Virus record (IMG/VR): IMGVR_UViG_2687453119_000006 | Coordinates: 50,544-114,543 of that record | Source of the DNA: a virus | Lineage: Duplodnaviria; Caudoviricetes | DNA: 64,000 nt | Direction: 5' to 3' (one strand) | Translations under genes and position numbers: made by a program | The notes under the pieces: generated by a model | Told to the model about the DNA's origin: nothing | The model's input: the letters and a program-made list of their open reading frames with translations, nothing else | The model's database searches: none | Shown here: piece by piece, positions 13,263-39,411 of the stretch | How positions within the stretch are numbered: the stretch's first letter is position 1 | Layout: every line of letters starts with the position of its first letter

Positions 13263-13337
13263 GTCAGTGTAGCTCAATGGTAGAGCAGCGGCTTCATAAG
13301 CCGCAGGTCGTTGGTTCAACTCCTCCCGCTGGCACCA
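13263..13337 (+). tRNA. tRNA with CAT anticodon (Met or Ile2); T-stem has two mismatches
   Basis: Acceptor GTCAGTG/CGCTGGC, D-arm AGCTCAATGGTAGAGC, anticodon stem GCGGC/GCCGC, TTCAA loop, encoded CCA. Confidence 0.8.
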
Positions 13338-18362: not shown

Positions 18363-18436
18363 GACGCGGTGGCCGAGCGGCCAGGCAGCGGACTGCAACT
18401 CCGCGGAGGCTGGTTCGACTCCAGCCCGCGTCTCCA
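18363..18436 (+). tRNA. tRNA-Cys(GCA)
   Basis: Full cloverleaf, GACGCGG/CCGCGTC acceptor, U discriminator, CCA. Confidence 0.95.
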
Positions 18437-22719: not shown

Positions 22720-22796
22720 TGGCAAGTAGCTCAGATCGGTAGAGCGCCTCGCTGTTAACGAGGATGTCGCAGGTTCGAGTCCTGCCTTGCCAGCCA
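22720..22796 (+). tRNA. tRNA-Asn(GTT)
   Basis: Full cloverleaf, U1-A72, G discriminator, CCA. Confidence 0.95.
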
Positions 22797-33291: not shown

Positions 33292-33507
33292 ATGGCAAAA
33301 GCAAAGAACGCGGCCACCGAAGAGGTGGTCGCGGTGGAGCCGCAGGCTCCCGAACCGGCTCCGATCATGTATGAGGTGACCCTGAACGGTCGCTTCACTC
33401 ACATGGACTTTCCCTACCTGCCTTCGCATCACCACATCGTCGACAAGGCGATCTACGATGCGATGGTCGAAGCGGGGGTAGTTGCCGATGTCAAGCAACT
33501 TTCCTGA
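33292..33507 (+). CDS. Small hypothetical protein
   Basis: In-operon ORF. Confidence 0.6.
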   Translation: MAKAKNAATEEVVAVEPQAPEPAPIMYEVTLNGRFTHMDFPYLPSHHHIVDKAIYDAMVEAGVVADVKQLS

Positions 33508-35182
33508 GCTTGTATTCAGCGACGACGAAGACTTCACGGCAGATCGATTGAACTTGGCGATGCAGGTGCTTGATCAGCGCCTGCGTTCGCTGGAGCCTTT
33601 TTCTCCGAGCTGGGAGCAGGCAGTCAACGATCTGCGTCTGGTCGGACTCTCTCGACTGAACGACGCCATCCTGCCGGCGTATCAGCGCATCCAGCTGCTG
33701 TCCACGCTCGGCTTCCTGTTCGCTGGCTCGTCCAGCGAAGTCGCTCTTACCCAGGACATGACCGCGACGTTTGTCATTGACGACGAGACGGAAAAGTCCC
33801 TGTTCACCCCGACGCCATTCCTGGCGCTGACCCGCTCCTCGACGATAGATGACTATGCGATTGCGCAGTTGATCTCGTATGAGCAGGCGACCGGCACCTT
33901 GATGGTGAAGGTCAAATCGATCACCGGCAGCCCTGGTCCTTTCACGGACTGGCAGATCGGCGCCTGTGCGGCGTCAACCATCGCAGCGATGGCCTACTTC
34001 ACGCAGATCGATGCGGCCCGCAACGCAGCCAACGTTGCAAAGGCAGCAACAGCTGCCGACCGCGTACAGACCGGTCTCGACCGCATCCAGACGGGTGTGG
34101 ATCGGAATGCCGCGGCGCAGTCGGCTGTAGCAGCGTCTGCCTCTGCTGACCGAGCCGGCACCTGGGATCCGACCAACTACGCCCTCAAGTCGTATGTGGA
34201 CGGCAAGATCCAAGCGCTGGTCGGCACCGCGCCGGCCACCCTCGACACGCTCGCGGAAATCGCGGCGCAGATGCAGGCGGACGAGAGCGGCTTTGCCGCG
34301 CTGTCCACCACGGTCTCCGGCAAGCTGACGGCAACGCAGAACCTGAACGACCTGACCGACAAGGCACAGGCTCGCATCAATCTGGGCGTCACTTTCGCCA
34401 ACCCGACCAGCAAGTCGGGCCTAACGGCGGCGAACGGGTCGGCCGTTACCTACATGCGGTCTGATGCTGCTCCTGCGATCGACGTTTCGATCGCGCCGAC
34501 CTGGACCAACAAGCACATCTTCCAGTGGAACTCTGGAGCGACATACTGCATCAACGTCCAGACCTATGGCGGCTTGACCATCTACGCGCCGGACCAGGGC
34601 TCGGCGTTCATGACGTTCCATCGCGGCGCATACGCGAGCCAGTTTGGGCTCGACGGTGACAACTACTACCGATGGGGTGGTTGGTCGGATGGTGCTGGCG
34701 GAGTCCGTATGTACCTGAGCCCTGGTGGCTTGTTGTACAGTGCAGGTTACGGCGCCTCGACGACGCCTGTTGGTGGTCAGGTGCGCGCGGCCGGCGACAT
34801 CATCTACGGCCTGTCGGATCAACGTCTGAAGGACGACATCCAGATCATTGAAGATGCTCTGGAGAAGATCGACCAGCTCGATGGCGTCACCTGGGTTCAG
34901 AGCGATCTGGCCCGCGAGGTTGGTGCACCGGTTCAAGACCGTCGCAAGGCCGGTCTGTTGGCGCAGCAGCTGGAGAAGGTTCTGCCCGAAGCGGTCGGCC
35001 TGGCTCCGTTCGACACGAACAAGCTGATGAAGAGCCGTACGGGCTTGAACCTGCTGAACATCCAGTACGAGCAGGTTTCTGGTCTGCTGGTGGAAGGCAT
35101 CAAGGCGCTGAAGCGCAAGAACGAGGCGCTCGAAGACCGAGTCGCACGACTCGAAGCGATCATCGAGAAGCTGGGGGTGTAA
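33488..35182 (+). CDS. Tail fibre with C-terminal S74 intramolecular chaperone domain
   Basis: AP.TLDTL.EIA motif, LSDQRLKDDI autocleavage motif, GLLAQQLEKVLPEAV, terminal coiled coil. Confidence 0.9.
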   Translation: MSSNFPELVFSDDEDFTADRLNLAMQVLDQRLRSLEPFSPSWEQAVNDLRLVGLSRLNDAILPAYQRIQLLSTLGFLFAGSSSEVALTQDMTATFVIDDETEKSLFTPTPFLALTRSSTIDDYAIAQLISYEQATGTLMVKVKSITGSPGPFTDWQIGACAASTIAAMAYFTQIDAARNAANVAKAATAADRVQTGLDRIQTGVDRNAAAQSAVAASASADRAGTWDPTNYALKSYVDGKIQALVGTAPATLDTLAEIAAQMQADESGFAALSTTVSGKLTATQNLNDLTDKAQARINLGVTFANPTSKSGLTAANGSAVTYMRSDAAPAIDVSIAPTWTNKHIFQWNSGATYCINVQTYGGLTIYAPDQGSAFMTFHRGAYASQFGLDGDNYYRWGGWSDGAGGVRMYLSPGGLLYSAGYGASTTPVGGQVRAAGDIIYGLSDQRLKDDIQIIEDALEKIDQLDGVTWVQSDLAREVGAPVQDRRKAGLLAQQLEKVLPEAVGLAPFDTNKLMKSRTGLNLLNIQYEQVSGLLVEGIKALKRKNEALEDRVARLEAIIEKLGV

Positions 35183-35183
35183 G

Positions 35184-35417
35184 ATGGCTGTTCCGTCATC
35201 TGGCGCTGTCGGCTTCTCGACCGTCAACTCCGTCTTCGGCTACGGCATCGCGATGAGCAGCTACGTCGGCCGGCCCTACTACTACTACGAAGTGAACTGG
35301 GGCGTTAGGTCCGGCACCTTCCCAGGCTCCAACTTCCCGATGTCTCTCTTCTACGGGAAATCCAACCACGACGAATGGAACTGCGCCTGCGCCTGCGCCT
35401 GCGCGTGCGGCAAGTGA
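35184..35417 (+). CDS. Putative fibre-tip protein / RiPP-like precursor with C-terminal (Cys-Ala)4-Cys
   Basis: 1 nt after the fibre stop; MAVPSSGA...MSLFYGKS N-domain then NHDEWNCACACACACGK. Confidence 0.8.
   Translation: MAVPSSGAVGFSTVNSVFGYGIAMSSYVGRPYYYYEVNWGVRSGTFPGSNFPMSLFYGKSNHDEWNCACACACACGK
35382..35408 (+). repeat. In-frame hexamer tandem repeat (TGCGCC)3 TGCGCG TGC
   Basis: Read directly; encodes CACACACAC. Confidence 0.9.
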
Positions 35418-35423
35418 GGATCA

Positions 35424-35744
35424 ATGACCAAGCCACCGAGCACCACCTTCAGCTACCGGATCAATCACTGGAGCAAGGACGGCTGGGCTCGAGTCGAGTA
35501 TCGGCACGAGACGCTCGGTAGCTTGGTCAAGCAGGTCTTCATCCCGCTGAACCATTCGGAAGAGGAGCAGCGTGGCGCCGTCATCATGCAGTTCCCCTGG
35601 CAATCCTTCCACGCCAGGTATCTTGAAATGTTGGCGCAGGCGGCTGCTCCGGCCCCCGCGGCAATGGAAGGACAATTCACGCACCGCATCGATCGTCCCA
35701 TGGAGGATCCGGTCGGTTTGCCCATGGAAACCCAAAAGGTGTAG
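35424..35744 (+). CDS. Hypothetical protein in the modification cassette
   Basis: GAGGA RBS; 6 nt after previous stop. Confidence 0.7.
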   Translation: MTKPPSTTFSYRINHWSKDGWARVEYRHETLGSLVKQVFIPLNHSEEEQRGAVIMQFPWQSFHARYLEMLAQAAAPAPAAMEGQFTHRIDRPMEDPVGLPMETQKV

Positions 35745-35746
35745 CG

Positions 35747-36292
35747 ATGCAGTTCAGGCGCATCCGTTTCGAGAACTTCACGATCACGATCTTCACGGCG
35801 CATGCCGGCGAAGAGAGGGTCTGTCCTCCGTCTGAACTAACCCGCGGCCTGACCGCGTCAGACGCTCCGGCCATCGCTCACCTGCTCGAAGGCAAGGATG
35901 ATGCTCGGCCGCTCCACACCATTCCGGTGTACACCAAGGGCGGCTTCGAGGCTCTCGGCGGCGATCACGCGCCGGACCCTCGCCCGGCTGGTAGCGGCGC
36001 CACTCAGTTCGTGAGGGGCATCGACAACTACAAGCTCCGCGCCACAGCGCCGGATAGCGAATATCACTGCATCACCCCGAAGAGCAAAGAGCCGGTGTTC
36101 TGGCAGCGCTCATTCGTCGGCGGGAAGGCCGGCGACACGTTCGAGGTTCTGCCCAACAGCTACCTCTACATCGCAGAGGGCAAGATCGAGCTGGCTCACC
36201 AGACGTTCGTCGGCCCCACGATGCTTGAGATCACCAAGCCGCACACGGCCAAGATCACCGATCCGGTGATGGGCGCCAAGCTCTGGCGCTGA
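35747..36292 (+). CDS. Hypothetical protein, cupin-like beta-barrel
   Basis: Beta-strand pattern (YHCITP, YLYIAEGKIEL); 2 nt spacing. Confidence 0.6.
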   Translation: MQFRRIRFENFTITIFTAHAGEERVCPPSELTRGLTASDAPAIAHLLEGKDDARPLHTIPVYTKGGFEALGGDHAPDPRPAGSGATQFVRGIDNYKLRATAPDSEYHCITPKSKEPVFWQRSFVGGKAGDTFEVLPNSYLYIAEGKIELAHQTFVGPTMLEITKPHTAKITDPVMGAKLWR

Positions 36293-36302
36293 AAGGAGCC
36301 CC

Positions 36303-36932
36303 ATGCCCACGATCCGCTTCCTGACGCCTGCCGACTTTGGCGATATGTGCGACATCATCGACAAGCACAGCAGCGGCATGGGCGCATGGTGCAACGATCC
36401 GACCGCCCCGGTGAAACCGAACTTCCGCCAGCTCGCGAAGGACCATGTGGACCTTTGCTTCGAGCAGGCTATGTCGAACTTCTGGGGCTATTTTGACGAC
36501 TCCGGCAAGCTCGTCGCCTGGGTCAACTTCACCCGATGGGCTGATCCGATCAACATCACCATCCGCTCCGTAATCGAAGATCCGGACGCCGACCTGCCGC
36601 GCCGCGATGGCGCTGTCTGGTCGGAAGCCGCGGTCGATCTGGCGAACTGGGGCATGGGGTACTTCTGGTCGGAGGGCGTCGAGAATTTCTGGTGCCGCAT
36701 GTATGCCGGCAAAGAGGATCGGCACATCTCGGATCACCCCAACTGCATGCTGACTCAATACCAGCGCGAAAGGGTCAAGTTCATCCGGGCCGGCGAGCAA
36801 CCGCCGCCCGAGTATCGCAGGGTCAGCTGGTCGCCGTTTGACGACGACACAGCGATCTATCGGTTCTCCGACACATTGCCGCTGCTGGCGTATCTCGAAA
36901 GTGCAAATGATCCGACTGGAAATGCTGAGTGA
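36303..36932 (+). CDS. GNAT-like fold protein
   Basis: IRFLTPADF..M..I start and WGYFDDSGKLVAW hairpin; AAGGAG RBS. Confidence 0.55.
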   Translation: MPTIRFLTPADFGDMCDIIDKHSSGMGAWCNDPTAPVKPNFRQLAKDHVDLCFEQAMSNFWGYFDDSGKLVAWVNFTRWADPINITIRSVIEDPDADLPRRDGAVWSEAAVDLANWGMGYFWSEGVENFWCRMYAGKEDRHISDHPNCMLTQYQRERVKFIRAGEQPPPEYRRVSWSPFDDDTAIYRFSDTLPLLAYLESANDPTGNAE

Positions 36933-38205
36933 GAACGGAGAGGTCGTGCCTCTGTTCTACGATCAGCACACCTCACGTCTGCTCGACAAGGACGGCTTCA
37001 AGGCCGTCGACTACACCAACAACCCGATGTATGACCCGGAGCCATCGCAGCGCCGGCCGTTCATCGCGGTGGACTACGATCAGCCAGGGCGCAAGGTCCG
37101 CGAGGTCCGGAAGCTGAAGATCCAGCTCGGCCTCGGCTGCAACAAGTCCTGCTCATACTGCCTCCAGGCGATACAGGTTCAGAAGGCCGCGGCGACAAGC
37201 ACGCGGGATGCGTCGGTATTTCTGGCGAACATCGACGGCTGGATCGTCAACCCGGAGGGGATGGAGAAGGTCGAGCTGTGGGGTGGCGAGCCGCTGCTCT
37301 ACTGGAAGAAGATCGAGATCCTCGCCCCGGCGTTGATCGCGAAGTTCCCGAACGCTCAGTTCTCGATCATCACGAACGGCGAGCTGCTCACTCGAGAGAT
37401 CGTCGATCAGCTCAAGGCCTGGAATTTCTCTCTGACCATCAGCCATGATGGCCCGGGGCAGGCGGTAAGGGGAGACGACCCGTTCGAAGACCCTCACAAA
37501 TTTGCCATGATCCAGTACGCGCAGAAGACGTTTCATCCGCGCTTCTCGTTCAACGCTGTGCTCACCCCTAAGAGCCACGACGTCAACGCCATCATCGACT
37601 GGTTCCACGATTACTTCCCGGGCTGCAACGTCGGCTTCGAGGGAGTCGTTCACAGCTACGCCAGCGACCCGGCATCGATCTTCTCGATCGAGCAGCTGGC
37701 GCAGTTCAGCGACACGCTGTCCCGACAGCTGGCCGATGGATCGGCTCTCCGATCCCCCGCGATCATGGACAAGCTGCGCAGGTCGGTGAACTCGTTCGTC
37801 AATGAGCAGTCCTCGGAGACGCTGTTCCAGAAGTGCGGCATGGACATGCCGGAGTATCTGGCGGTCGACCTGAAGGGCAACGTCATGACCTGCCAGAACG
37901 TGGGCGCCAACGGCAACCACAAGATCGGGCACGTCAGCGACTTCGAGAACATCGCGCTCAACACCTCCAAGCACTGGAGCAAGCGCCCAGAGTGCCAGAG
38001 CTGCCCCGTGCTGCAGCTTTGCCAAGGCGCCTGCATGTACCAGGGAGGGGACAACTGGACGCACAGCTGCAACGCTGAGTTCTTCTACAACCTGGCCTTC
38101 TTCAGGGCCGCGCTCTTCATCCTCACGGGACGATGGCTGGTTGGTTTCAGCGGCGATATCGTGCGTCCGAAACTGAAGAAGGATCGCGATGTCGAAGTTC
38201 GCTGA
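36907..38205 (+). CDS. Radical SAM/SPASM domain enzyme
   Basis: CNKSCSYC (CX3CX2C), WGGEPLL, ITNG, ISHDG; SPASM cysteines KCG...TCQ...CQSCPVLQLCQGAC...SC. Confidence 0.95.
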   Translation: MIRLEMLSENGEVVPLFYDQHTSRLLDKDGFKAVDYTNNPMYDPEPSQRRPFIAVDYDQPGRKVREVRKLKIQLGLGCNKSCSYCLQAIQVQKAAATSTRDASVFLANIDGWIVNPEGMEKVELWGGEPLLYWKKIEILAPALIAKFPNAQFSIITNGELLTREIVDQLKAWNFSLTISHDGPGQAVRGDDPFEDPHKFAMIQYAQKTFHPRFSFNAVLTPKSHDVNAIIDWFHDYFPGCNVGFEGVVHSYASDPASIFSIEQLAQFSDTLSRQLADGSALRSPAIMDKLRRSVNSFVNEQSSETLFQKCGMDMPEYLAVDLKGNVMTCQNVGANGNHKIGHVSDFENIALNTSKHWSKRPECQSCPVLQLCQGACMYQGGDNWTHSCNAEFFYNLAFFRAALFILTGRWLVGFSGDIVRPKLKKDRDVEVR

Positions 38206-38920
38206 ACTGGTGGGGATTCTTGACAAAATACCCCACCTGTTCTTAGAAAAGGCCTACGATGCGACACGTCTACAAACTGAGTTAGACGCCATCGATCCGG
38301 CACTTTTCGTGCCCTTCCGTTCCAAGAGCAGAAACGCTGACCACATCGCCGAGTTCTGGCGAGGTCTTTCGCTGGTCGCTCCGAGCGGATCTCTCCATGA
38401 CGATTTGACCGAGGTTCCATACGAAGGCCGCACAGGCTACGTCTGGACCCCGGTCGCCGAGAGCAGCCCCTACATCAAGCAGCTCGTGACCGAGCTTGGC
38501 GGGGAGGGGCAGCGCGCGCGGCTCATGTGCGTGAAGGCAGGCGGCAGTCTGACCTGGCACCGCCATGGATCAGAGCTTTCGATGATCGTCGGCGCCCACG
38601 GCCGGCGGCCGAACTGGTACGAGCTGATCGTCCACGTCCCCATCCGCACCAACCCGGACTTCAGCTACGAGGTCATCGACACTCGGGTCTACGAGCTGGC
38701 GGACTACTCGGCCGGGAAGCTGGAGATCCACCGGAAGAACTACCCGAAGGGCGAGGCCTGGGCGTTCAACGGTGCTCACTACCACAACGTCTTCAACCGC
38801 TCCGAGACCGAAGACCGCTACGCCATCATGCTGACCCTCGACATCAGGATGAGGAAGACGTTCGACATCGTGTCGAAGGCGGTCGAGAGCTACGAGGGGC
38901 CACTCCTGACAGGGCTCTGA
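38189..38920 (+). CDS. Asp/Asn beta-hydroxylase-like Fe(II) oxygenase
   Basis: RARLM...AGG.L.WHRH, VHVPIRTNP, GEAW.FN....H.V.N....DR motifs. Confidence 0.8.
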   Translation: MSKFAELVGILDKIPHLFLEKAYDATRLQTELDAIDPALFVPFRSKSRNADHIAEFWRGLSLVAPSGSLHDDLTEVPYEGRTGYVWTPVAESSPYIKQLVTELGGEGQRARLMCVKAGGSLTWHRHGSELSMIVGAHGRRPNWYELIVHVPIRTNPDFSYEVIDTRVYELADYSAGKLEIHRKNYPKGEAWAFNGAHYHNVFNRSETEDRYAIMLTLDIRMRKTFDIVSKAVESYEGPLLTGL

Positions 38921-38921
38921 A

Positions 38922-39344
38922 ATGGAAACCATCATCTCCGCGAAGCCGCCCGACGTGCTCGCGGACAACTTCATTGTCGCCACGAACGAAGACTGGGTTC
39001 GTGAGTGGCAAATCAAGAACAGCGGCGTGATCGTCCCGATCCAGCCCGACTGGAAGCTGTACATGCAGCTGCAGCGGACATCGACCGGCGATCTCGGCGT
39101 GACGTGCTCTACCGACAATGGCCGCCTCGTGGTCGTCGATCAGGGCGCCGGCAAGTTCGGTCTCAGGCTGAAGCAGGCGGACGCCGCCCAGATCAGCCCT
39201 GCGGGCTACCAATATGACATCGTCCTCGTTGCTGGCGATGGCATCTACCGCCTGGTGACAGGCACCATCACGGTCGACCAGGGGATCACCAACATCCCCG
39301 GCCAGGAGAAGTGGATTCACTATCCGCTGATCCTTCGACCGTAA
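38922..39344 (+). CDS. Virion structural protein, BppU N-terminal-like Ig fold
   Basis: YQYDIVL......RLV.G.ITV..GIT pattern. Confidence 0.6.
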   Translation: METIISAKPPDVLADNFIVATNEDWVREWQIKNSGVIVPIQPDWKLYMQLQRTSTGDLGVTCSTDNGRLVVVDQGAGKFGLRLKQADAAQISPAGYQYDIVLVAGDGIYRLVTGTITVDQGITNIPGQEKWIHYPLILRP

Positions 39345-39372
39345 CTCATCGCCAACAACCTTCACCTCCACG

Positions 39373-39398
39373 CCGCCCCCTTCCGGGCGGTTTTTTTG
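39373..39398 (+). terminator. Intrinsic terminator closing the baseplate-fibre-rSAM unit
   Basis: CCGCCC/GGGCGG stem plus T7. Confidence 0.85.
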
Positions 39399-39411
39399 TT
39401 TGGGAGAACCC

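What the first reader, a model, noticed from the sequence alone, without database searches (positions are those of the whole stretch)
33488..39398. RiPP-like modification cassette embedded in the tail operon: candidate system for a chemically modified receptor-binding tip
Seen: S74 tail fibre, then a 77-aa protein ending NCACACACACGK, a 106-aa unknown, a cupin-like, a GNAT-like, a radical SAM/SPASM and an Asp/Asn-hydroxylase-like gene, then another structural gene and only then a terminator. Gaps are about 10 nt or less, or the genes overlap, and codon style matches the structural genes, so this looks like part of the late operon rather than a recent moron. Established: SPASM radical SAM enzymes often crosslink Cys-rich peptides (sactipeptides, ranthipeptides); in T2-type phages the gene after the S74-bearing fibre (gp37) encodes the tip adhesin (gp38). 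Inference: the 77-aa protein is both a virion tip component and the enzyme substrate, so the phage would build its host-recognition ligand by post-translational chemistry. One possibility is a metal-chelating or siderophore-mimicking group that engages an outer-membrane transporter. No exporter or leader peptidase is visible, which fits a virion-retained product better than a secreted RiPP. I know of no characterised example but cannot check the literature.
Basis: partly seen in the sequence, partly recalled or inferred. Interest (0 to 1): 0.95.

Follow-up and report, generated by a model that had tools for sequence, protein, structure and literature searches.

The report
Radical-SAM cassette for cysteine-tailed fibre protein
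A Bradyrhizobium prophage encodes, inside its tail-fibre genes, a small protein ending in alternating cysteines together with a radical-SAM enzyme of the peptide cross-linking kind, a pairing that recurs in many other phages and suggests that they chemically modify a part of their host-binding fibres.

Summary
In a P2-like prophage tail operon (provirus record), an S74 fibre gene is followed by a 77-aa ORF ending NCACACACACGK, a 106-aa unknown, a weakly bicupin-like 181-aa protein, a GNAT-fold 209-aa protein, a radical SAM/SPASM enzyme, an Asp/Arg-hydroxylase-like 243-aa protein, a 140-aa fibre-assembly-like gene and a terminator.

The core is the enzyme plus the cysteine tail. Of 142 loci with distinct rSAM homologues, 105 carry a same-strand ORF whose mature C-terminus is a run of three or more alternating Cys. 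NCxCxC occurs 138 times on the enzyme's strand and 8 on the other. Carriers include true tail fibres. Where a self-cleaving S74 or Hint domain follows, the run lies directly before it.

The N-terminal module of the 77-aa protein recurs on long Gly-rich proteins. The other four cassette genes occur only in Bradyrhizobium prophage relatives.

Best reading: RiPP-like maturation, probably thioether cross-linking, of a virion-retained fibre accessory. The chemistry, virion location and any metal or siderophore role are untested. Nine full-text searches found no description. This scan has already noted the same pairing on other phage DNA (e1-5846371 and others).

The parts
33482..35182 (+). Tail fibre, 566 aa from the TTG start (ATG at 33488). 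It has a C-terminal S74 intramolecular-chaperone/peptidase domain. The predicted self-cleavage is before S445 (SDQRLK). There is no Cys run before the cleavage site.
   Evidence: PF13884 at 445-505, E 9.9e-14; tail-fibre PHROGs; SDQRLK at index 444; S445, D446, R448, L449 and K450 invariant.
35184..35417 (+). 77-aa protein: an N-terminal module of about 64 aa plus the C-terminal ladder N-C-A-C-A-C-A-C-A-C-G-K. It is the proposed rSAM substrate and a fibre-associated small subunit.
   Evidence: 16 homologues at E <= 1e-3 among 1.84 billion representatives. W65, C67, C69 and C73 invariant; N66 and C71 at >= 90%. The N-module is shared with Gly-rich P0166 (467 aa) and P0170 (373 aa) and with the Hint-fused P0168.
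35424..35744 (+). 106-aa protein of unknown function, specific to this prophage lineage.
   Evidence: No hits; found in 5 of 142 loci.
35747..36292 (+). 181-aa all-beta protein, weakly bicupin-like. Possible tailoring enzyme or substrate-binding partner.
   Evidence: AF2 pLDDT 73.5. Foldseek best hit 3rns at E 2.2e-4, HutD at TM 0.44-0.47. Atlas lead: Cupin_7 in 22% of one cluster at score 0.90. Only Bradyrhizobium homologues.
36303..36932 (+). 209-aa GNAT-fold protein, a putative acyl/acetyl-transferase. Many annotators start it 7 codons later.
   Evidence: AF2 pLDDT 86.7. Foldseek hits to RimI, ArsN and SpeG at E 1.5e-8 and up, probability 1.0. N115, W116 and G117 invariant, G119 at >= 90%. 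Only Bradyrhizobium homologues.
36922..38205 (+). Radical SAM/SPASM enzyme, 427 aa from the ATG at 36922. This is the conserved core enzyme.
   Evidence: PF04055; phrog_1802 at 5e-55; TIGR04085 SPASM above cut-off, with best sub-threshold equivalogs PapB and QhpD. C73, C77, C80 and C305, C324, C358, C361, C367, C371, C383 are invariant in 27 homologues. 2148 proteins at E <= 1e-30.
38189..38920 (+). 243-aa Asp/Arg beta-hydroxylase-like cupin oxygenase with an invariant W-H-x-H motif.
   Evidence: PF05118 at E 0.0026 for the window protein; 7 of 7 family members match, best 2.7e-6. H124, H126, H149, H181 and H199 invariant. Not detectably related to the PF13759-type oxygenases of other loci (hhalign probability 0.2%).
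38922..39344 (+). 140-aa protein resembling a tail-fibre assembly protein. It is the last gene before the terminator.
   Evidence: phrog_1084 at 1.8e-9; phrog_3304 'L-shaped tail fiber protein assembly' at 5.4e-6.
39372..39401 (+). Terminator-like hairpin with a T-run, between the cassette and the sheath gene.
   Evidence: 7-bp stem with 6 GC pairs, then TTTTTTGTTT.

Best explanation
The block is a phage-encoded, RiPP-like protein-maturation cassette built into the tail-fibre operon.

Proposed mechanism:
1. The radical SAM/SPASM enzyme (36922-38205) acts on the C-terminal N-C-x-C-x-C ladder of the 77-aa protein (35184-35417). This pairing is shown by comparative genomics. The reaction itself is inferred.
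2. The most likely chemistry is thioether (ranthionine- or sactionine-type) bonds that use the ladder's cysteines, within one chain or between chains.
3. The enzyme probably recognises the short C-terminal motif itself rather than a leader. The same tail is appended to unrelated carriers, and no RRE domain is detectable.
4. The Asp/Arg-hydroxylase-like oxygenase, the bicupin-like protein and the GNAT-fold protein add lineage-specific tailoring such as hydroxylation or acylation. This is inferred from folds only.
5. The product is not exported. It stays with the particle as a small subunit in the adhesin slot after the S74 fibre. This is inferred from carriers in other phages and from the shared N-module.
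For: Enzyme identity:
- Full rSAM and SPASM cysteine sets are invariant in 27 homologues.
- The nearest NCBIfam models are thioether maturases: PapB at 1.2e-20 and QhpD at 4.3e-18. anSME is weaker, at 3.2e-11.

Pairing of enzyme and tail:
- From 159 fetched loci I kept 142 with distinct rSAM sequences. 105 of these have a + strand ORF with at least 3 alternating Cys at its mature C-terminus within -6.5 to +4.5 kb. 93 are upstream and 12 downstream.
- 14 of the 37 misses have less than 2.5 kb of upstream sequence.
- The residue before the first Cys is Asn in 101 of 117 motifs.
- NCxCxC occurs 138 times in 107 loci on the + strand, against 8 times in 7 loci on the - strand. Scanned lengths were similar, at 1.19 and 1.08 million residues.
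- The pairing is seen in three named, unrelated phages. JWF, a siphovirus, has the fibre gp028 ...NCNCDCNCNCSC directly before a Hint domain. RSP15, Ackermannviridae-like, has a side fibre ending NCQCGN.

Carriers are structural proteins:
- Of 7 Cys-tail ORFs scanned, 4 match tail-fibre PHROGs or collagen repeats and 3 have no hit.
- In L055 the S74 domain starts 2 residues after the run.
- In L056 the Hint domain starts at the last Cys.

The 77-aa family:
- The ladder is conserved.
- P0168 is the N-module plus ladder plus a Hint-like region. P0166 and P0170 are the N-module plus a large Gly-rich domain.
- The related phage BDU-MI-1 lacks the cassette and has a Gly-rich 198-aa gene in the slot after the fibre.

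No secretion machinery: no protease or exporter hit in any cassette protein.

Precedent: CrpC, a SPASM rSAM, installs ranthionine cross-links on the Cys-rich protein CrpA (PMC13692751; abstract and passages read).
Against: - No experiment or structure shows any modification.
- The interleaved residues vary (N 233, A 70, D 55, R 36, K 21), so no fixed acceptor residue is evident.
- The rSAM falls far below every curated equivalog cut-off, for example PapB at 74 against 340 bits.
- 23 evaluable loci lack the strict motif. On inspection several have variants, such as L017 and L015, L018 and L155. Seven belong to a YcaO-type bacterial context.
- Small size, tandem paralogues (L013, L052, L067, L078) and that YcaO-type RiPP sister context also fit a free peptide.
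- Virion location is not shown.
- A looser test, at least 3 Cys including CxC in the last 16 residues, did not discriminate: 114 loci on the + strand against 96 on the - strand.
Confidence: 0.6

Rival explanations
1. The 77-aa protein is the precursor of a free RiPP, with the N-module as leader and the Cys ladder as core. It would be released at lysis as a bacteriocin, signal or metallophore rather than built into the virion.
For: - It is small. Relatives carry tandem paralogues (L013 has two; L052, L067 and L078 have up to three).
- The same rSAM family sits next to YcaO-like genes and short precursor-like ORFs in at least 7 bacterial loci.
- Virion incorporation is untested.
Against: - No peptidase or exporter in the cassette.
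- The identical tail is fused to collagen-repeat, S74 and Hint fibres in other phages.
- The N-module also heads 373-467-aa Gly-rich proteins, which does not fit a disposable leader.
- The gene lies between the fibre and a fibre-assembly-like gene, in one operon.
Confidence: 0.15
2. The Cys ladder is a metal or iron-sulfur binding zipper that stabilises a trimeric tip, analogous to the HxH iron sites of T4 gp37 (recalled). The rSAM would not modify it covalently. It might act on another target or only help metal loading.
For: - Alternating residues on a beta strand face one side.
- Only the Cys and the preceding Asn are conserved, while the interleaved residues vary.
- The CrpA paper also speculates about metal binding (PMC13692751, discussion passage).
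Against: - The rSAM and the tail are tightly co-located.
- The enzyme's nearest families all modify peptides covalently.
- No other conserved candidate substrate was seen in the neighbourhoods.
Confidence: 0.12
3. The rSAM and its partners modify the S74 fibre itself or another virion protein. The 77-aa protein would be only an assembly factor or chaperone that is absent from the final particle.
For: - Genes just after fibre genes are often assembly chaperones (established for P2/T4-type phages; recalled).
- The 140-aa neighbour resembles a fibre-assembly protein.
Against: - The window's fibre has 2 Cys and no Cys run before its cleavage site.
- Across loci it is the Cys tail, not any particular fibre, that tracks the rSAM.
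Confidence: 0.08

Closest known systems
CrpC/CrpA of Methanococcus voltae (SPASM radical SAM that installs ranthionine cross-links on a Cys-rich protein; PMC13692751)
   Same: A three-cluster rSAM/SPASM enzyme encoded next to a Cys-repeat protein rather than a short peptide. The Cys-rich region is C-terminal.
   Different: - CrpA has 17-residue repeats with C-X-X-Q/D motifs and an RRE-leader interaction (paper passages). Here the target is a 6-50-residue run of strictly alternating Cys at the extreme C-terminus, and no RRE is detectable.
- The hit to the TIGR04463 model is 48 bits against a cut-off of 525.
- The context here is a phage tail operon. The paper never mentions phage (0 occurrences).
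PapB/freyrasin ranthipeptide and QhpD/QhpC thioether systems
   Same: They are the best-scoring curated rSAM models (PapB 1.2e-20, QhpD 4.3e-18). Both are SPASM enzymes that link Cys sulfur to side-chain carbons. QhpC is a protein subunit that is retained, not secreted (as summarised in PMC13692751).
   Different: - Scores are far below the equivalog cut-offs: 74 against 340 bits and 65 against 453 bits.
- No Cys-X3-Asp spacing is present.
- The carrier is a virion fibre or fibre accessory.
T2/S16-type gp38 adhesin encoded after the gp37 fibre (recalled, not tested against a gp38 sequence)
   Same: - The gene sits immediately after the distal fibre gene.
- The N-module of the 77-aa family also heads long Gly-rich proteins (P0166, P0170). 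From recall, this resembles the gp38 layout of attachment domain plus Gly-rich adhesin domain.
   Different: - No sequence-family link to gp38 was found.
- Here the adhesin domain is replaced by a 12-residue Cys ladder.
- Attachment to the fibre is untested.
Earlier notes of this scan on other phage DNA (e1-5846371: Asn-Cys repeat tail proteins + rSAM/SPASM + 2OG oxygenases; e1-6048848, e1-5664647 and others)
   Same: The same rSAM plus alternating-Cys fibre-tail pairing, with oxygenase companions. I reproduced it independently from this window.
   Different: - Here the tail is on a stand-alone 77-aa protein with a distinct N-module.
- The companions are an AspH-like oxygenase, a bicupin-like protein and a GNAT-fold protein, restricted to Bradyrhizobium prophages.

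Membership tests
Radical SAM / SPASM peptide-modifying enzymes | CxxxCxxC radical SAM cluster motif | tested here: met
   C73, C77 and C80 invariant in 27 homologues; PF04055 at E 3.2e-10.
Radical SAM / SPASM peptide-modifying enzymes | C-terminal SPASM domain with the seven/eight-Cys auxiliary-cluster motif | tested here: met
   TIGR04085 at 39.8 bits, cut-off 27. C305, C324, C358, C361, C367, C371 and C383 invariant.
Radical SAM / SPASM peptide-modifying enzymes | N-terminal RRE (PqqD-like) leader-recognition domain | tested here: not met
   Only about 70 residues precede the cluster motif. No PqqD/RRE hit even at E 10. Sequence-only test; no fold was made.
PapB ranthipeptide maturase (NF047865) / QhpD (TIGR03906) / anSME (TIGR03942) / TIGR04463 equivalogs | Score above the curated equivalog cut-off | tested here: not met
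   74.1 against 340, 65.2 against 453, 42.9 against 349.45 and 48.2 against 525 bits.
Classical RiPP gene cluster | Precursor with a core next to its maturase | tested here: met
   The 77-aa ORF lies 1.5 kb upstream on the same strand. The pairing recurs in 105 of 142 loci.
Classical RiPP gene cluster | Leader peptidase and/or exporter | tested here: not met
   No protease or transporter family hit in any of the 8 cassette proteins.
Peptidase_S74 (intramolecular chaperone) tail fibres | C-terminal S74 domain with the conserved Ser/Lys cleavage motif | tested here: met
   PF13884 at E 9.9e-14. S445, D446, R448, L449 and K450 invariant.
Asp/Arg beta-hydroxylase (PF05118) cupin oxygenases | Match to the family model and conserved metal-binding His residues | tested here: inconclusive
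   The window protein scores 18 bits against a cut-off of 22.6. 7 of 7 relatives match at E <= 0.1, best 2.7e-6. H124, H126 and H199 are invariant.
GNAT acyltransferases | GNAT fold with an acyl-CoA binding loop | tested here: inconclusive
   The fold is met (Foldseek E 1.5e-8, probability 1.0). There is no Pfam hit. A conserved G117-x-G119 lies in the helix at 108-123. CoA binding was not tested.
T2-type gp38 fibre-tip adhesin | N-terminal fibre-attachment domain plus Gly-rich receptor-binding domain; binds the gp37 tip | not testable with these tools
   No family hit.

The most novel reading that the evidence does not exclude
Hundreds of phages from unrelated lineages make the business end of a receptor-binding fibre by post-translational chemistry. 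A portable C-terminal Asn-Cys ladder would be converted by a leader-independent radical SAM/SPASM enzyme, plus oxygenases and here a GNAT, into a cross-linked, non-proteinogenic and possibly metal-binding tip. That tip would take part directly in host recognition or in penetrating the envelope. In this prophage the tip would be a detachable 77-aa subunit in the adhesin slot.
Probability: 0.25. Interest if true: 0.95.

Novelty: new variant of a known kind. Interest (0 to 1): 0.8.

Why it matters
Phage receptor-binding proteins are generally treated as plain polypeptides whose specificity lies in sequence. An enzyme-installed modification on fibre ends would add a chemical layer to host recognition or fibre stability. 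That layer is invisible to sequence-based host prediction and to heterologous expression of fibres without their maturases.

It would also extend RiPP-type radical chemistry from secreted peptides to virion structural proteins, and provide a short, portable C-terminal tag with a dedicated enzyme.

The system is common. 2148 proteins match at E <= 1e-30.

It is directly testable in cultured phages such as JWF and RSP15 and in Bradyrhizobium lysogens.

Tried and rejected
Searches and comparisons that led nowhere:
- tblastn of the 77-aa protein against 50,697 phage records found nothing.
- BLASTP of the window's accessory proteins against JWF, RSP15, RP12 and BDU-MI-1 neighbours matched only the rSAM, the fibre and the 752-aa protein.
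- jackhmmer of the accessory proteins against the loci found them in only 5 of 142. They are therefore not part of the conserved core.
- hhalign of the 243-aa family against the two PF13759-type oxygenase clusters gave probability 0.2%, so they are not detectably the same lineage. The two clusters are related to each other (98.4%).
- A profile of the 243-aa family against PDB sequences gave only chance hits.
- The ESM Atlas gave weak leads only for the 181- and 209-aa proteins.
- A loose 'Cys-rich C-terminus' rule did not separate the strands, 114 against 96 loci, and was dropped in favour of NCxCxC.
- BLASTP of the BDU-MI-1 Gly-rich protein against P0166 and P0170 gave E 4e-11 and 1e-7. I had switched off the low-complexity filter and composition correction, so I treat this only as a lead.

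Literature: nine accepted full-text searches found no paper describing rSAM maturation of phage fibres. I read passages of PMC12801897, PMC10783043, PMC9228384 and PMC9959647, which were irrelevant to the question. The JWF characterisation paper (Dreiseikelmann et al., seen only as reference 42 of PMC9228384) is not in the library and may hold virion mass-spectrometry data.

Ideas considered and rejected:
- anSME-type formylglycine formation: weaker model score and no C/S-x-P/A-x-R motif (the motif is recalled).
- A moron of recent origin: GC3 and operon structure argue against it.

Full report
**What is there.** The window's record is a provirus of 114.5 kb. Homologue names point to a Bradyrhizobium host. 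On the + strand the order is: baseplate J-like gene, a 410-aa gene, a 752-aa gene, a 71-aa gene, then the fibre, the cassette, sheath, tube and tape measure.

- The fibre (33482/33488-35182) carries a Peptidase_S74 domain at 445-505. Its SDQRLK cleavage motif starts at S445.
- Next come the 77-aa ORF ending DEWNCACACACACGK, the 106-, 181- and 209-aa ORFs, the rSAM/SPASM gene (ATG at 36922), the 243-aa ORF and the 140-aa ORF.
- These genes are separated by 1-10 nt or overlap by 11 and 17 nt.
- A terminator-like hairpin follows at 39372-39391.
- GC3 of the cassette genes (0.77-0.85) lies within that of the neighbouring structural genes of at least 100 aa (0.76-0.87).

**Identities.**
- The rSAM has PF04055 and a SPASM domain above the NCBIfam cut-off. 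It belongs to phage family phrog_1802 (5e-55). It resembles PapB and QhpD most, far below their equivalog cut-offs.
- In 27 homologues the CxxxCxxC cysteines and seven SPASM cysteines are invariant.
- Sequence gives no sign of an RRE domain.
- The 209-aa protein folds confidently (pLDDT 86.7) as a GNAT.
- The 181-aa protein is an all-beta protein with weak bicupin similarity.
- The 243-aa family matches PF05118 in 7 of 7 members (best 2.7e-6; the window's own 0.0026). It has an invariant W-H-x-H.
- The 106-aa protein remains blank.
- The 140-aa protein matches a PHROG of unknown function and, more weakly, a fibre-assembly PHROG.

**The key comparative result.** rSAM homologues of 38-40% identity sit in the tail-fibre modules of Achromobacter phage JWF and Ralstonia phage RSP15. 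Only the rSAM is shared by BLAST. However, JWF's fibre gp028 contains ...NCNCDCNCNCSC immediately before its Hint domain, and RSP15's side fibre ends ...NCQCGN.

I then fetched 159 loci with an alignment of the enzyme: 79 from viral contigs and 80 from species genomes. I reduced the loci to 142 with distinct enzyme sequences.

- 105 of the 142 have a same-strand ORF whose mature C-terminus is a run of at least three alternating Cys. 93 are upstream and 12 immediately downstream.
- 14 of the 37 misses lack 2.5 kb of upstream sequence.
- Among the 23 evaluable misses, several carry variant tails. L018 ends ...NCACVPADCANCGACE, L017 ends ...ACACGDCA, L015 ends ...NEWACDCANCSMK, and L155 ends ...PCACGQGK.
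- Asn precedes the first Cys in 101 of 117 motifs.
- NCxCxC occurs 138 times in 107 loci on the enzyme's strand and 8 times in 7 loci on the opposite strand.
- A looser Cys-rich rule did not discriminate and was dropped.

**The carriers are structural proteins.**
- A BLAST cluster that includes the window's fibre spans 93 loci, and 44 of its 165 ORFs carry the run.
- Of the seven Cys-tail ORFs I scanned, four match tail-fibre PHROGs or collagen repeats and three match nothing.
- In L055 the S74 domain starts two residues after a 27-Cys (CK)n run. In L056 the Hint domain begins at the last Cys.

Whatever the architecture, the run therefore ends up as the free C-terminus of the mature protein.

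**The 77-aa protein.** An exhaustive HMMER search found 16 representatives.
- The ladder and the preceding Trp-Asn are the most conserved part.
- The N-terminal module (MAxPSSG...FG...Y.GR.YY...FP..N.S...FYGK) also heads P0166 (467 aa) and P0170 (373 aa), which continue into large Gly-rich domains.
- P0168 is the N-module plus ladder plus a Hint-like region.
- The related Bradyrhizobium phage BDU-MI-1 has the same 752-aa gene, fibre and sheath but no cassette. Its fibre has no S74 domain, and a Gly-rich 198-aa gene fills the slot after it.

It is not proof.

**Core versus accessories.**
- The 77-, 106-, 181-, 209- and 243-aa genes occur in 5 of 142 loci. A local HMM adds 77-aa relatives in L015 and L017.
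- Word-based searches find the 181- and 209-aa proteins only in Bradyrhizobium.
- Elsewhere the frequent companions are a protein of about 297 aa (90 loci) and two related clusters of PF13759/phrog_81 2OG-Fe(II) oxygenases (63 and 58 loci).

So the recurrent theme is Cys tail plus rSAM plus one or two cupin-fold oxygenases. The window carries a lineage-specific version with an AspH-like oxygenase, a bicupin-like protein and a GNAT.

**A bacterial sister context.** Seven loci from Burkholderiales and Gammaproteobacteria genomes have the enzyme beside a YcaO-like ORF of about 750-830 aa and a short precursor-like ORF with [N/D]-C-x-[A/C]-[I/V]-S-P or NCxCGCGIA. These loci fall in one contiguous 11-leaf block of a 141-leaf tree. 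This supports RiPP-type enzymology. It also keeps alive the rival that small carriers are free peptides.

**Mechanism.**
- Shown: the gene pairing, the enzyme class and the terminal position of the ladder.
- Inferred: that the rSAM acts on the ladder, that it forms thioether links, that recognition is leader-independent, that the oxygenase and GNAT tailor the same tail, and that the product stays on the virion.

The thioether inference rests on the nearest families and on the CrpC/CrpA precedent (PMC13692751; abstract and passages read). Nothing supports a siderophore mimic.

**Novelty.** Nine full-text searches found no description. The CrpC paper does not mention phage. This scan has already noted the same pairing on other phage DNA. 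I reproduced it independently from this window. I add the stand-alone carrier with its shared N-module, the Bradyrhizobium-specific enzyme set and the YcaO-type sister context.

I rate it a new variant of a known kind: rSAM/SPASM maturation of Cys-rich proteins, here applied to virion fibres. Interest 0.8.

Noticed in passing
window 13263-13337, 18363-18436, 22720-22796: The prophage encodes tRNA-Met, tRNA-Cys(GCA) and tRNA-Asn(GTT). Cys and Asn are the two residues of the N-C ladder motif, and all five Cys codons of the 77-aa tail are TGC. A link is not shown and may be coincidence.
   Followed up: partly
L097, L109, L110, L117, L119, L121, L126 (about 0-2.5 kb upstream of the rSAM): In bacterial genomes the same rSAM family sits beside a YcaO-like ORF of about 750-830 aa and a short precursor-like ORF with one to four Cys, for example ...EGC..NCxCGCGIA... 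These loci fall in one contiguous 11-leaf block in the tree, together with four loci where the YcaO pattern was not found.
   Followed up: partly
L064, L066, L069, L074, L076, L082-L086, L088, L089, L168 (ORF starting about 1.4 kb after the rSAM start): In 12 loci the Cys run lies inside an ORF of about 300 aa just downstream of the rSAM. It is followed by SKIxCAKLYExG and a hydrophobic C-terminal part. The N-terminal region weakly matches the 77-aa N-module HMM, at E 9e-7 to 5e-3. The architecture is unexplained.
   Followed up: no
L013 / L092: 4330-4563, 4567-4794 and 8256-9002, 8981-9751: A close relative of the cassette (B. hipponense type) has two tandem 77-aa paralogues and two tandem 243-aa oxygenase paralogues.
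   Followed up: no
L055 113-907; L062 976-1701: Very long (C-K)n ladders of up to 27 Cys lie directly before an S74 cleavage motif in viral contigs.
   Followed up: partly
L004 (Ralstonia phage RP12) 1991-7101: This jumbo phage has three radical SAM genes in a row next to virion structural genes. One is 27% identical to the window's enzyme.
   Followed up: no
L001 (Bradyrhizobium phage BDU-MI-1) 5323-7847: A related tail module lacks the cassette. Its fibre has no S74 domain and is followed by a Gly-rich 198-aa gene and a 146-aa gene.
   Followed up: partly
window 38189-38920; alignments A4 and A5: Both the 243-aa family (H124-x-H126 ... H199) and one PF13759-type oxygenase cluster (H129-x-H131 ... 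H203) have invariant H-x-H rather than H-x-D. The other cluster has H-K-D. The meaning for the chemistry is unknown.
   Followed up: partly
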